NCBI RefSeq assembly: GCF_902652985.1
Contig: NC_047021.1
Coordinates: forward strand, 22,878,001-22,942,000
Length of the DNA stretch: 64,000 nucleotides
Direction: 5' to 3'
Source: Pecten maximus
Lineage: Eukaryota
The position numbers were made by a program. Below are positions 9,001 through 64,000 of this stretch, in pieces. Every line of letters starts with the position of its first letter. Position 1 is the first letter of the stretch.

Positions 9001-12000
9001 TGTTAATCTTGGTAAGCCAGTACAAAGTGTAAAACTGATTGATCTATCACGCAGATATGTACATTGTTTTGTTTGCCTTTTAACTTTCCTACCTACAAAA
9101 GATGTACAACAGTGAATTACCTATCTGAGGTAAATTATCTATATTTTCACCAGCAGTTGTTGCACCTTAAACTATAATGCTCCAATCAGGCTCCGAGAGG
9201 TTAGACCAAGTCCCTCAGTAGTGGCACCAAACAGGCTGTCTTGTATGTAAATATCTATATCAACATTTTTAACCTCAGGAAAAAACAAAAACAGCTACCA
9301 GTACATGCTCTTTATGAACCCGTTTTGTCTTATTTCGGTGAAAAAAAAGGGGACTAAATTTAGCTTCTCTTTTGTATAACTTTTTGTTTAAAAAAATTAC
9401 CGCTTCTTTCATTCATTCATCTTGCATCACTTTGTAGTCTTAGAGTAGATCTGTGTGATATCATTTTCAAACTACAGCAATTTTCGAGCAAAGGGAGGAG
9501 TAGATGTATAAAGGAGCTGGTACATTTTCGGCAAATTTTAATGGAATGTCGGACATAGACGTAAATCATATAGGGATTTATGACTTTAGGGGGAAGGGTT
9601 TTTGAATGGAGTGTGACCAACTGTAGATAGATGTGGAATGATGACCGAGTTTGAGTGATGTTCCTATAGCCATGCAGTAGTCCATACAACATGGTTAAAC
9701 CACACATCCTATAAGGATTTTCATGTTATCTATTAAAGCTGAAGACATAGATTTAATGTCAAAATGACTATAAAGCATGGTATAAAGTTGTTTTATTATA
9801 CAAAAAAATTAGAGTTGAGTATCATTGTTTGGTGATGTTTACATGGGAGATTGGCCAACAGGTGGTTTCACTGGTAGAAGAACTGGTTCACGGAAAACAT
9901 TTATAAATAATGGCAGGAGAGATACAAAGGGCTGGTGGCACCAAAAACCACACAGTTGTATTTTGTATATCATTCGTATGCTCGAGTTTGACATCTATTT
10001 CGAGTTTGACATCAAGTTTGTATGCTTTAGTGAGGTTGATCCAATATTAATGTTGCCATGTTGTGTTTGGTCTGTATGGAACAGGTGCTCAAACCTACTT
10101 CCTCACAGTGGTTGATACAGGGCTGAGATCTGGCTTTGGCATACAAACACCCAAATTTCTGAGATTTCGATCAACACCAGACAATAATCCAGAGAAATCA
10201 TTGGGGTGTTACATTTTTATTGGCTATTATTTAGGAAGTAACACCAGAGCAAACACAGACTGTATCTCAACTCCGAGGTGGCAGGCATCCTGGAAGGAAT
10301 ATCTCTCATCTTGTCTGCTGATGTCAAATGTTTGCAGTGATCCCATATACACATATAATTAGCTTCAATAGGTAAAACACAGACAGAAGAAGACCATTAT
10401 CTGACTGGGTGGTGTGGCTGTGGGGACCACAGCTAGCAAATATAAGGGTTCACAATACAGCTGTTTGTCTTTACATGACAGATAAAATTATGGAAACATC
10501 GAGCTTCAACAAATGTACTTTTGTTGTTATATTTGTTTTTACCTGATTGATAATTCCTGCACAATTTCCAATTAGATCGCAAAAGGTCAATGCCATGTCT
10601 GTGAAGGTCATAGTTATATCTACAGTATCAATGTTATTTGATATATCAAAGAAGTTCATTGTAGTATCTGTAAAGGTCATTGTTATATCTGTAAAGGTCA
10701 TTGTTATATCTGTAAAGGTCACTCTTATATATGTAAAGGTCACTCTAATATCTGTAAAGGTCATTGTTATATCTGTAAAGGTCATTGTTATATCTGTAAA
10801 GGTCACTCTAATATCTGTAAAGGTCATTGTTATATCTGTAAAGGTCATTGTTATATCTGTAAAGGTCATTGTTATATCTGTAAAGGTCACTCTAATATCT
10901 GTAAAGGTCATTGTTATATCTGTAAAGGTATTTAGTTTGTCTTTAAACATTATTGTTATATATTTACAGGATGGACCAAGAATTAATCAAAATGCAGCTC
11001 TCTCATTACAAGAGTTTTGTAAGTGGCAATATTCTCATAATATTCATGATGACAACCAGTCGCAGCATTACGATACTGCAGTATTGATGACCAGGTAAGT
11101 CAAACTTGCTAATTACAACTCCATCATGCCATCTAATCTTTAAAATTCCCATAACCCAGCCCAGCCAAATATAGTTTATCACCAAACTGCTCCCTTTTAA
11201 TCACTGTGCCACTGCCATTTTACCACTGTACCACACTCTTTAACCACTGTGCCACTTCCTTTAACCGTTGTACCACACCCTTAACCACTGTGTCACACTT
11301 TTCAACCACTGTGCCACACCCTTTAACCACTGTGCCACACTTTTTAACCACTTTGCCACACCCTTTAACCACTGTGCCACTTCCTTTAACCGTTGTACCA
11401 CACCCTTAACCACTGTGTCACACTTTTTAACCACTTTGCCACACCCTTAACCACTGTGTCACACTTTTTAACCACTGTACCACACCCTTTAATTACTGTG
11501 CCACACCCTTTAACCACTGTGCCACACTCTTTAATTACTGTGCCACACCGTTTAACCACTGTGCCATTCTTGTTTGTCTTAATTTCAAAATCACTACTTC
11601 CACCACAAACCATGTCCCAGAGTAGCATACTTGTAGTATTTGGTTCTGATAGATTCCTTACAGAATGACTGTTAATTTAAAGCAGTATTCTTCTCTGGGT
11701 ACTGTGTGAATATATCTCACACACATATTTTTGTTCCCCTTTTAATCTGGGTTAAGTTCAATATTAATTTGATTATTGAAGATCAGTGTGACACTAAATA
11801 CTTACATGCTATTTCTATACTGTAAGTATTAAGGGATAATAGTGTTAATACACTGACCACAGAAATAAAGTTAATCCCCCAGGAATGTAGGTACAGACTT
11901 AATGACCTTTGTCTGATAACACCTGGATAACACTACATCACGTTAATTACTATTATTTATACAATCCCAGGTAAATACAAGTCCTCCCTGTACAATGTTA

Positions 12001-62800: not shown

Positions 62801-64000
62801 TGTAGGAACCAGGAAAAGCCAGCCTCTCGGGAGCCATGTGTGAGGGCTGCATGTGGAATATGGAGGTCTGGAAACTGGGGAAAGGTAGGTCACAAATTTT
62901 ATCAATTTTATAACAGATAAATTTCATTCTCTCCATAGCAGTAAAGGTATAATGGAGAATAGAGATAGCCATATTTATCTGAATATCTGCATTATTGATG
63001 GTTTATATCTAAAAACATGAGTTCTTAATGTTTTTCTCAGTTGTTTATGGTTTTCATTTAAACTTGATTTACTTTATATATTTGTGTTATTAATGGATGT
63101 TATTTAAACTTGATTTCCTTTGTAAAAACTTGAGTTCCTTTGTATATCTGTGTTGTTAATATTTTGCCAACAGTGTAGTGCTTCCTGTGGAGAAGGTATA
63201 ACTACACGCCAAGTTGTTTGTTACCATGTCAACCGACGTCGAGTGGACGAAGGTCAGTGTGACAGGGCACTTCGTCCGGAGACCAGCCGTGTGTGTAACG
63301 GTGGAGATTGTCCCACTGTCAGTGAGGATACTTATGAGACAGTAGTGATAACCTCTAACAATGTGGAGGGAACCACCCAATGGAGGGTAGGACCCTGGAG
63401 TCAGGTGTGTACCACATATACTGTAGGGTAGGACCCTGGAGTCAGGTGTGTACCACAGATACTGTAGGGTAGGACCCTGGAGTCAGGTGTGTATCACAGA
63501 TACTGTAGGGTAGGACCATGGAGTCAGGTGTGTACCACAGATACTGTAGGGTAGGACCCTGGAGTCGGGTGTGTACCACAGATACTGTAGGGTAGGACCC
63601 TGGAGTCGGGTGTGTACCACAGATACTGTAGGGTAGGACCCTGGAGTCAGGTGTGTACCACAGATACTGTAGGGTAGGACCCTGGAGTCAGGTGTGTACC
63701 ACAGATACTGTAGGGTAGGACCCTGGAGTCAGGTGTGTACCACAGATACTGTAGGGTAGGACCCTGGAGTCAGGTGTGTACCACAGATACTGTAGGGTAG
63801 GACCCTGGAGTCAGGTGTGTACCACAGATACTGTAGGGTAGGACCCTGGAGTCAGGTGTGTACCACAGATACTGTAGGGTAGGACCCTGGAGTCAGGTGT
63901 GTATCACAGATACTGTAGGGTAGGACCCTGGAGTCAGGTGTGTACCACAGATACTGTAGGGTAGGACCCTGGAGTCAGGTGTGTATCACAGATACTGTAG

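What the first reader, a model, noticed from the sequence alone, without database searches (positions are those of the whole stretch)
10580..64000. Recurrent splice-junction-seeded minisatellites: splice sites amplified into intronic arrays at up to 8 junctions of one gene
Seen: unrelated tandem arrays whose unit contains or closely mimics the adjacent exon-intron junction. They occur at the acceptors of exons 1, 10, 14 and (weakly) 16, and at the donors of exons 6, 7, 8 and 21. Each array extends into the intron, and the homology-supported site is always the exon-proximal copy. Arrays range from near-identical (exons 10, 21) to decayed (exons 6, 7, 8), suggesting repeated birth and decay. Established: tandem duplication across an AG|GT site is a proposed route to intron gain and junction sliding. 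Inference: this genome repeatedly produces banks of decoy splice sites, mostly frameshifting or stop-containing, so copy number could tune productive versus NMD-bound splicing. Selection alone could also explain the polarity.
Basis: partly seen in the sequence, partly recalled or inferred. Interest (0 to 1): 0.72.

Follow-up and report, generated by a model that had tools for sequence, protein, structure and literature searches.

The report
Minisatellites copying splice junctions, scallop-like gene
In one metalloprotease gene of a scallop-like animal, several intronic tandem repeats grew out of short pieces that straddle exon-intron borders, so each repeat carries a spare copy of a splice site; this kind of repeat is already known from lancelets and a few human genes.

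Summary
The window carries 21 internal exons of an ADAMTS9/20-like gene on the + strand. The closest protein is Mizuhopecten yessoensis ADAMTS9-like. Tandem arrays cover about 28-29% of the gene region.

Seven of the eight claimed junction arrays hold up: the acceptors of E1, E10 and E14 and the donors of E6, E7, E8 and E21. In each, the repeat unit includes the splice signal plus 1-21 exon bases. The E16 acceptor claim is not supported.

Exon parts inside the units encode residues conserved in the scallop protein, so the junctions seeded the arrays. All units are unique to their locus within the window.

Within this gene the arrays sit at or near junctions about 2.5-6 times more often than two null models predict. 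This is one gene, chosen after the fact.

The kind is known: "mirages" in amphioxus, and the human F7, IFI6-16 and CBS minisatellites. There the extra sites are mostly silent.

The best reading is a tolerated by-product of very active minisatellite formation. The decoy-bank / NMD-tuning idea is untested. No intron shows signs of origin by duplication.

Interest is moderate: a new member of a known kind.

The parts
10598..10969 (+). E1-acceptor array: 21-nt unit, about 15 copies; its last, diverged copy is the authentic acceptor (TACAG|G)
   Evidence: TRF 10652-10961. blastn-short hits run from 10598. Register view shows 13 TAAAG|G copies plus the authentic TACAG|G. Junction against consensus: score 23, 1 of 1500 nulls. 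The array is open in the exon frame.
10970..11094 (+).
   Evidence: upstream residues 1-298 not found in the window
39299..39339 (+). Exon E2
44355..44460 (+). Exon E3 (ends ...HELGH, part of the zinc site)
46866..47012 (+). Exon E4
47192..47348 (+). Exon E5
47526..47636 (+). Exon E6
47623..49366 (+). E6-donor composite array: decayed 35-36-nt units (47623-47875 and 49169-49366) that start inside exon 6, with a younger 46-nt x28.7 array (47867-49185) nested in them
   Evidence: TRF rows. Copies listed: GT is kept in 1 of the 10 non-junction copies I lined up by eye from the anchored rows and raw sequence, the most distal one. Junction against consensus and against the distal copy: 0 of 1500 nulls each.
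52862..53004 (+). Exon E7 (central TSP1)
52987..53250 (+). E7-donor repeats: 27-nt unit x2 spanning the donor (52987-53040), then a decayed 27-nt array (53068-53250) derived from copy 2
   Evidence: 23 of 24 nt identical across the junction; 2 of 1500 nulls
53368..53431 (+). Exon E8
53411..53575 (+). E8-donor decayed array: five ~33-nt units, the first holding the last 21 nt of exon 8; 3 of the 4 later units keep AGGTAAG
   Evidence: (score 35, 0 of about 404 controls); not listed by TRF
53625..53739 (+). Exon E9
54154..54711 (+). E10-acceptor array: 30-nt unit x about 18, each with T-rich tract + AG + first 7 nt of exon 10
   Evidence: TRF 54179-54711, 95%; register view; 32 of 32 nt identical across the junction; 15 decoy AG|TTCGTC sites
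54705..54841 (+). Exon E10 (Cys-rich)
55691..55817 (+). Exon E11
56177..56272 (+). Exon E12
56508..56674 (+). Exon E13
57666..58109 (+). E14-acceptor array: 47-56-nt units, about 8 copies; the last, shortened copy is the authentic acceptor (ACAG|GTT)
   Evidence: TRF; register view with 6 ATAG|GT and 1 ACGG copies; 24 of 27 nt across the junction; score 31 with 0 of about 405 controls
58107..58230 (+). Exon E14
58388..58523 (+). Exon E15
58543..59365 (+). 31-nt x26.7 array starting 20 nt after the E15 donor; not junction-derived
   Evidence: score 9, 87% of nulls reach it
59529..59935 (+).
   Evidence: 32% of controls reach it; 9% of nulls
59951..60158 (+). Exon E16
60285..60449 (+). Exon E17
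60565..60729 (+). Exon E18
61984..62433 (+). Exon E19 (TSP1 plus a repetitive linker with coding 9-27-nt repeats)
62717..62884 (+). Exon E20
63174..63404 (+). Exon E21
63384..64000 (+). E21-donor array: 41-nt unit x15 (cut by the window end); unit = last 21 nt of exon 21 + first 20 nt of the intron
   Evidence: TRF 98% matches, score 1185; register view. There are 14 decoy donors, 12 identical to the authentic CAG|GTGTGT. In-frame TAG at 63429.

Best explanation
These are 'mirage'-type minisatellites. In an extremely tandem-repeat-rich, scallop-like genome, short tandem duplications arise in place. At seven junctions of this ADAMTS9/20-like gene the founding unit (21-56 nt) happened to straddle an exon-intron border. 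Slippage or unequal exchange then multiplied the unit into the intron, so every unit carries a copy of the donor or acceptor signal plus 1-21 exon bases.

The gene still works because the copy contiguous with the unique body of the exon is the one spliced. The other copies are by-products: decoy sites that are ignored or rarely used.

SHOWN: the anatomy, the in-place origin, and the exon-to-array direction.
INFERRED: the growth mechanism, the silence of the decoys, and the lack of any regulatory role.
For: - Exon map with consistent phases and no stops.
- Register views and alignments across the junctions.
- Statistical support for 7 of 8 claimed junctions.
- Every unit is found only at its own locus in the window, so these are not dispersed elements.
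- The exon parts of the units are conserved coding sequence in P0001.
- Arrays cover 28-29% of the gene region, with 71 merged arrays in 64 kb.
- Tandem repeats are the most abundant repeat class in scallop genomes: 11.3% and 21.7% (passages of PMC5700196 and PMC10225492).
- In the composite E6 array the first and last copies share the GTGAGGGAG donor, while 9 of the 10 other copies I lined up lack the GT. This is the edge-versus-interior pattern of array turnover described for mirages.
- Precedents where such copies do not disturb splicing: human F7 IVS7 (abstract and Introduction of PMC1557585) and amphioxus Adh3, globin, TnC and PGBD5 (passages).
- Splice-like motifs are not clearly commoner in array units than in other intron sequence. 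Donor score >=5 occurs in 4 of 25 arrays against 10% of null segments. Acceptor score >=4 occurs in 9 of 25 against 25%.
Against: - Pure chance seeding under-predicts what is seen: 7 (strictly 5) junction-spanning arrays against 1.0-2.8 expected. Arrays also lie closer to junctions than random placement predicts. Something beyond uniform seeding may act.
- In intron 8 the donor-like AGGTAAG is the best-kept part of otherwise decayed units, in 3 of 4. That could hint at retention by selection.
- The nearest E10 decoy and the 6 E1 decoys examined would give in-frame, stop-free insertions, so isoforms are conceivable.
- No RNA data, no second individual and no orthologous locus could be examined.
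Confidence: 0.68

Rival explanations
1. Decoy-bank regulation. The arrays are kept because their extra splice sites divert part of the transcripts into frameshifted or stop-containing, NMD-bound products. Copy number would set the productive fraction.
For: - Young arrays carry intact decoys: 12 of 14 E21 copies are identical to the authentic 9-mer, and there are 15 E10 AG copies.
- Most decoys would introduce stops or frameshifts.
- There is an excess of arrays at junctions.
- In human IFI6-16 and CBS the two nearest pseudo-sites are used (Introduction of PMC1557585).
Against: - There is no expression evidence here.
- In F7 the pseudo-sites are functional but silent, and amphioxus mirages do not disturb splicing.
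- In the older arrays most copies have lost the site. In the copies I lined up, E6 keeps GT in 1 of 10. The consensus of the E7 downstream array differs from the junction copy at donor positions +1, +2 and +5 over the first 19 aligned nt.
- The arrays share no sequence with each other, as expected for accidents and not for a device.
Confidence: 0.1
2. Junction-biased birth or persistence. Exon-intron borders are preferred sites for minisatellite formation, or arrays anchored on an essential splice site persist longer because deletions cannot remove the last copy or run into the exon. The excess would then be real and mechanistic, without the arrays having a function.
For: - The excess holds under two nulls.
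- The same phenomenon recurs in several amphioxus genes, where its authors call the generating mechanism unclear (passage of PMC3087553).
Against: - This is one gene, flagged post hoc.
- With the strict count of 5 the per-intron seed model gives P = 0.06-0.11.
- The exon share of the units varies from 1 to 21 nt, so no fixed breakpoint at the splice consensus is visible.
Confidence: 0.2
3. Assembly artefact or mis-read gene model. The arrays would be collapsed or expanded by the assembler, or some arrays (for example the in-frame E1 array) would really be coding.
For: - The E1 array is an open frame contiguous with E1 (ORF 10547-11095).
- Long near-identical arrays are hard to assemble (general knowledge).
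Against: - Copies carry scattered variants and nested structure, as real arrays do.
- The peptide encoded by the E1 array has no significant similarity to P0001 upstream of the exon (score 31), and a good acceptor precedes E1.
- All 21 exons are intact.
Confidence: 0.04

Closest known systems
[quoted passage not shown]
   Same: Tandem units spanning an exon-intron border; both 5' and 3' borders affected. Unit sizes overlap (Adh3 10-72 bp; here 21-56 nt). Several occur in one gene. Many units keep AG/GT. Array edges escape homogenisation. The host is a marine invertebrate genome rich in minisatellites.
   Different: A different phylum: the window is bivalve-like by its closest protein. Copy numbers here are higher (15 to about 18 in the young arrays, against 3-6 units reported for BflGb6). 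Splicing fidelity and length instability, shown for amphioxus, could not be tested here. I found no mollusc report under that name in the held library (search).
Human F7 IVS7 37-bp VNTR, and the IFI6-16, CBS, LAMIN B2 and PDGF minisatellites whose first monomer spans an exon-intron boundary (PMC1557585, abstract and Introduction)
   Same: The first monomer holds the end of the exon and the donor, so identical pseudo-donors follow the real one. The E21 and E7 arrays are of exactly this form.
   Different: The human cases listed there are all at donors. Here three arrays are at acceptors, and seven sit in one gene. Exclusive use of the most upstream site was shown by experiment for F7 and is only inferred here.
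Intron gain or sliding by tandem duplication of an AG|GT proto-splice site (Lehmann et al. 2010, PMC2891723 passages; Zhuo et al. 2007 seen only as a title in a reference list, paper not held)
   Same: Tandem duplication that includes splice signals.
   Different: Here the duplications lie within pre-existing introns. No intron has homologous donor and acceptor flanks (best 12 of 30 matches; null mean 8.2, null maximum 16).
C. elegans CeRep25B intronic minisatellite, over-represented near alternative splicing regions (PMC4039745, abstract)
   Same: An intronic minisatellite associated with splicing regions.
   Different: That is one dispersed repeat family carrying regulatory motifs. The arrays here are locus-unique and derived from the adjacent junction.

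Membership tests
Mirage (tandem repeat spanning an exon-intron boundary) | Head-to-tail tandem repeat of at least 2 units | tested here: met
   TRF and register views
Mirage (tandem repeat spanning an exon-intron boundary) | Unit contains exon bases together with the adjacent splice signal | tested here: met
   Met at 7 junctions. Exon nt in the unit: E21 21, E8 21, E7 18, E10 7, E6 6 or more, E14 3, E1 1. Not met at the E16 acceptor.
Mirage (tandem repeat spanning an exon-intron boundary) | Regular splicing is not disturbed by the extra sites | not testable with these tools
   No transcript data. The exons are intact and match P0001 across every junction, which is compatible but not a test.
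Mirage (tandem repeat spanning an exon-intron boundary) | Length instability or polymorphism between haplotypes | not testable with these tools
   Only one sequence of the locus is available.
Mirage (tandem repeat spanning an exon-intron boundary) | Array edges excluded from homogenisation | tested here: inconclusive
   Seen in the E6 array: the first and last copies share the donor, while 9 of the 10 other copies I lined up lack GT. The E21 array is cut by the window end. The other arrays were not analysed this way.
F7-type VNTR with silent 5' pseudo-sites | First monomer spans the exon-intron boundary at a donor | tested here: met
   E21, E7, E8 and E6 donors
F7-type VNTR with silent 5' pseudo-sites | Pseudo-sites identical in sequence to the authentic donor | tested here: met
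   E21: 12 of 14 copies have an identical 9-mer. E7: 1 of 1. Not met in the decayed arrays: E6 1 of 10; E8 0 of 4 identical, with 3 keeping GTAAG.
F7-type VNTR with silent 5' pseudo-sites | Only the most upstream site is used | not testable with these tools
   Needs RNA data or minigenes.
[quoted passage not shown] | Donor flank and acceptor flank of the same intron are homologous | tested here: not met
   20 introns compared: best 12 of 30 matches; null mean 8.2, sd 2.5, maximum 16
ADAMTS metalloprotease, ADAMTS9/20/GON-1-like | Reprolysin-type zinc site, disintegrin-like and Cys-rich modules, spacer, central and C-terminal TSP1 repeats | tested here: met
   Exon-by-exon Pfam hits to Reprolysin_3, ADAMTS_CR_2, ADAMTS_CR_3, Adt-1, TSP_1 and TSP1_ADAMTS; several fall below the curated cut-off because single exons are fragments. 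E3 ends HELGH and E4 starts FNLPHDD. Exon-level identity to P0001 is 65-98%. That these residues form the zinc motif is recalled knowledge.
ADAMTS metalloprotease, ADAMTS9/20/GON-1-like | C-terminal GON domain and N-terminal propeptide | not testable with these tools
   Both lie outside the window. P0001 carries PF08685. Its residues 1-298 and those beyond about 1369 have no match in the window.

The most novel reading that the evidence does not exclude
Exon-intron borders in this bivalve genome may be genuine hot spots, or refuges, for minisatellite birth. That would be a 'mirage' phenomenon convergent with amphioxus. It would imply a mechanistic link between splice junctions and tandem duplication. 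At least the young arrays (E21, E10, and E1 with in-frame decoys) would then act as copy-number-variable modifiers of splice-site choice.
Probability: 0.12. Interest if true: 0.65.

Novelty: new member of a known kind. Interest (0 to 1): 0.4.

Why it matters
If the junction bias holds genome-wide, scallop-like genomes would join amphioxus as natural collections of reiterated identical splice sites. They would include acceptor arrays, which the human examples I read about lack. Such loci are ready-made tests of how the spliceosome picks one site among many identical ones, and of whether copy-number variation in such arrays affects expression.

For annotation the finding is practical. Gene predictors can pick a wrong copy in such arrays, particularly at E1 and E10, where decoys keep the reading frame.

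As it stands, the finding is an instance of a described phenomenon in a new animal group, with an unusually high count in one gene.

Tried and rejected
- E16 acceptor array as junction-derived: rejected.
- Arrays next to the E15 donor, E19 acceptor and E21 acceptor: no junction similarity.
- Dispersed-repeat or mobile-element origin of the units: rejected within the window. Units hit only their own locus apart from 11-15-nt chance matches.
- Intron gain by duplication: no signal.
- E1 array as coding sequence: no significant similarity to P0001 upstream of the exon.
- General enrichment of splice-like motifs in array units: not clear. Donor score >=5 in 4 of 25 arrays against 10% of nulls; donor >=7 in 3 of 25 against 4%; acceptor >=6 in 3 of 25 against 11.5%.
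- Other genes or RNAs in the window: 0 Rfam hits, 0 tRNAs, and 0 Pfam hits for 10 further long ORFs.
- Upstream exons of the gene: not in the window.
- Papers not held: Zhuo et al. 2007 and the original amphioxus Adh3 mirage paper. Supplementary files, for example the mirage alignments of PMC3087553, were not seen.
- Orthologous loci in other bivalves and genome-wide statistics could not be examined.
- The joined spliced model was deliberately not built or searched. All work on the coding sequence was done exon by exon.
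Full report
WHAT THE WINDOW IS

The window has no N. It is AT-rich, with GC about 0.33-0.54 per 2 kb. It is extraordinarily rich in minisatellites. TRF lists 163 rows that merge into 71 arrays of period 7 or more, covering 28% of the window and 29% of the gene region.

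Open frames on the + strand carry ADAMTS modules: Reprolysin_3, ADAMTS_CR_2, ADAMTS_CR_3, Adt-1 and TSP1_ADAMTS. One exon-bearing frame searched against the protein collection found a single significant longer relative. It is P0001, 'A disintegrin and metalloproteinase with thrombospondin motifs 9-like [Mizuhopecten yessoensis]', 1958 aa, with a GON domain among its precomputed Pfam domains. The window is therefore from a scallop-like bivalve, not from a human.

Local tblastn of P0001 against the window gives 21 collinear exons covering residues about 299-1369, at 65-98% identity per exon. I fixed every border by homology. All borders are AG...GT. Intron phases are consistent, and each exon translated on its own has no stop.

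Residues 1-298 of P0001 have no match anywhere in the window. The intron after it is 28.2 kb long.

CHECK OF THE OBSERVATION

Register views show the clear cases directly.

- E21 donor. The last 21 nt of the exon plus the first 20 nt of the intron form a 41-nt unit repeated 15 times, up to the end of the window, at 98% identity.
- E10 acceptor. A 30-nt unit repeated about 18 times ends in a T-rich tract, AG and the first 7 nt of the exon. The last unit is the authentic acceptor.
- E7 donor. A 27-nt unit holding 18 exon nt plus GTAAGTA is present twice. A decayed 27-nt array follows whose unit derives from the second copy.
- E8 donor. Intron 8 is 193 nt long. It consists largely of five decayed ~33-nt units, the first of which contains the last 21 nt of exon 8. 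Three of the four later units keep AGGTAAG. TRF had missed this array.
- E14 acceptor. The authentic acceptor is a shortened terminal copy of a 47-56-nt unit. 24 of 27 nt are identical to an upstream copy, reaching 3 nt into the exon.
- E6 donor. A decayed 35-36-nt array begins inside the exon. It has a younger 46-nt array of 28.7 copies nested in it. Its most distal copy still reads ATCAAGGTGAGGGAG, like the junction.
- E1 acceptor. The last 18 intron nt plus 1 exon nt are a diverged copy of the 21-nt unit.

I tested the claims in three ways.

1. 40-nt junction queries against the adjacent 600 nt of intron, with about 404 control windows each. No control reached the observed score for E7d, E8d, E10a, E14a and E21d. 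The fraction of controls reaching the score was about 0.01 for E1a, 0.10 for E6d and 0.32 for E16a.
2. 24-nt queries aligned end to end. The same five pass, and E1a, E6d and E16a do not.
3. Junction 40-mers against the consensus of the adjacent array, with 1500 null 40-mers. E1a scored 23 (1 of 1500 nulls) and E6d 25 (0 of 1500), both spanning the junction. E16a scored 14 (9% of nulls) and did not span it. The arrays near the E15 donor, E19 acceptor and E21 acceptor were negative.

So 7 of the 8 claimed junctions are supported. Two of these, E1 and E6, pass only the test that allows for decay. E16 is not supported: its array ends 15 nt before the acceptor.

DIRECTION AND ORIGIN

The exon bases inside the units encode residues that are identical in the Mizuhopecten protein: RVGPWSQ, QCNNP, RSCNTK and (I)RL. 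The junction is therefore ancestral and the arrays are copies of it. Each unit occurs only at its own locus in the window, apart from chance matches of 11-15 nt. The arrays arose in place and are not dispersed elements.

That the 'real' site is always the exon-proximal copy follows by construction. Only that copy is contiguous with the unique remainder of the exon.

IS IT MORE THAN CHANCE?

Raw coverage is misleading. A junction can only sit in the terminal unit of an array, so I used two other nulls.

Seed model. Collapse every array to one unit and let that unit fall uniformly in its own intron, or anywhere in the intronic sequence of the gene. The expected number of junction-spanning arrays is 2.4-2.8 (per intron) or 1.0-1.4 (global). 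P(>=7) is 0.002-0.008 or 0.0001-0.0005. For the strict count of 5 it is 0.06-0.11 or 0.003-0.013.

Placement model. Place the arrays at random within their own complete introns. An array then lies within 40 nt of 3.5 junctions on average, against 9 of 40 observed (P = 0.0008). Within 20 nt it is 1.9 against 6 (P = 0.003).

There is an excess of roughly 2.5-6 fold. Four caveats apply.
- This is one gene that was flagged because it looked striking.
- The E8 array was added by hand.
- E1 and E6 count only under the lenient test.
- Some arrays are not independent: the two E7 arrays share a seed, and the E6 arrays are nested.

WHAT THE EXTRA SITES WOULD DO

This was computed on contiguous genomic sequence only.

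- E21. All 14 decoys lie beyond an in-frame TAG at 63429.
- E7. The decoy adds 27 nt but meets a stop 2 nt into the intron.
- E8. The +34 decoy shifts the frame, and the others lie beyond a stop.
- E14. All 6 decoys bring stops.
- E10. 7 of the 8 nearest decoys bring stops or frameshifts. The nearest one would add 10 codons in frame with no stop.
- E1. All 6 decoys examined are in frame and open. The whole array is an open frame contiguous with the exon.

On a small weight matrix built from this gene's own 21 donors and 21 acceptors, the young decoys score like the authentic sites. In the decayed arrays most copies have lost the site. Counted in the copies I lined up from the rows and raw sequence, E6 keeps GT in 1 of 10. 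Over the first 19 aligned nt (16 of 19 identical), the consensus of the E7 downstream array differs from the junction copy at donor positions +1, +2 and +5. Copies share ancestry, so these counts are not independent tests.

Array units in general are not clearly enriched in splice-like motifs. Two mid-intron arrays with no exon nearby also carry strong donor-like motifs (27649-27993 and 49945-51455). A donor-like motif alone is therefore not evidence of junction origin.

WHAT IS KNOWN

The kind is described.

Human genes. The Introduction of Borensztajn et al. 2006 (PMC1557585; abstract and Introduction read) says that several human genes contain minisatellites whose first monomer spans an exon-intron boundary.
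- F7 IVS7: a 37-bp monomer made of 4 exon bp plus 33 intron bp, in 5-9 copies, with only the most upstream donor used.
- IFI6-16: 25 pseudo-sites, of which the two nearest are used.
- CBS, LAMIN B2 and PDGF are also listed.

Amphioxus. Tandem repeats spanning exon-intron boundaries are called 'mirages'. They are reported for Adh3 (units 10-72 bp), globin genes and other loci, at both 5' and 3' borders. [quoted passage not shown] They have been proposed as a route to intron gain. The generating mechanism is called unclear (passages of PMC3087553). PGBD5 and TnC cases are mentioned in PMC3902484 (one passage). The original Adh3 paper is not held.

Other background.
- Intron gain by tandem duplication in Drosophila is discussed in PMC2891723 (passages).
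- Zhuo et al. 2007 was seen only as a title in a reference list.
- Scallop genome papers report tandem repeats as the most abundant repeat class: 11.3% in Chlamys farreri and 21.7% in Amusium pleuronectes (passages).
- A search for 'mirage' together with tandem repeats, exon-intron, splice and mollusc returned no mollusc report of this phenomenon among the 12 of 23 listed titles. This covers only the held library, and only that name.

In this gene no intron has homologous donor and acceptor flanks, so there is no sign that the arrays created introns.

EXPLANATION AND VERDICT

The best-supported reading is that these are mirage-type arrays: accidents of very active minisatellite formation that happened to start on a junction. 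They are tolerated because the exon-contiguous copy is still chosen. Confidence is about 0.68 for the whole statement and much higher for the anatomy.

The excess at junctions leaves room for a birth or persistence bias (about 0.2, compatible with the anatomy).

Novelty: a new member of a known kind, notable for seven junctions in one gene and for three acceptor-side arrays. Interest 0.4.

What stays unchecked: transcripts, polymorphism, raw reads, orthologous loci and any genome-wide statistic.

Noticed in passing
window 11095-39298: Intron 1 of the visible gene part is 28.2 kb long and holds 29 TRF arrays. The other 19 complete introns are 115-5225 nt, and ten of them (115-359 nt) have no array at all.
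   Followed up: partly
window 49945-51455 and 27649-27993: Two mid-intron arrays far from any exon carry a strong donor-like motif in every unit. One has a 31-nt unit x48.6 with CAGGTATGT. The other has a 19-nt unit with AAGGTAAG. Their matrix scores of 8.4 and 10.5 match or exceed most authentic donors of the gene.
   Followed up: partly
window 17983-19469, 33388-33745, 42664-43481, 49945-51455: Many arrays are strongly G-rich on the sense strand (GC skew 0.64-0.94). Arrays in the gene average +0.28, against +0.085 for non-array intron sequence, but several arrays are C-rich instead.
   Followed up: partly
window 23786-23836, 23939-23959, 26163-26201: Long G homopolymer runs lie inside intron 1: 51, 21 and 39 nt, the last two imperfect.
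   Followed up: no
window 62128-62240 (inside exon E19): Coding tandem repeats of 9-27 nt (unit ACCACTACC) lie inside exon 19, in the linker that P0001 also has as a run of threonines. This is the only sizeable array lying wholly within an exon. A 12-nt x1.9 repeat lies in E15 at 58500-58522.
   Followed up: no
window 10547-11095: The whole E1-acceptor array is an open frame contiguous with exon E1 (183 codons; each unit encodes KVIVISV-like heptads). A gene predictor could wrongly extend the exon through it.
   Followed up: yes
window 47867-49185: A young 46-nt x28.7 array (97% matches) is nested inside the old, decayed 35-36-nt array that starts at the E6 junction. Its unit looks like a variant of the old unit with extra bases, which would be a second round of expansion.
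   Followed up: partly
window 1-10969: The 10.9 kb upstream of E1 holds no match to the first 298 residues of the scallop homologue. It has no Pfam-recognisable ORF among those tested, but does hold further large arrays, for example 2879-3385 and 7342-8035.
   Followed up: partly
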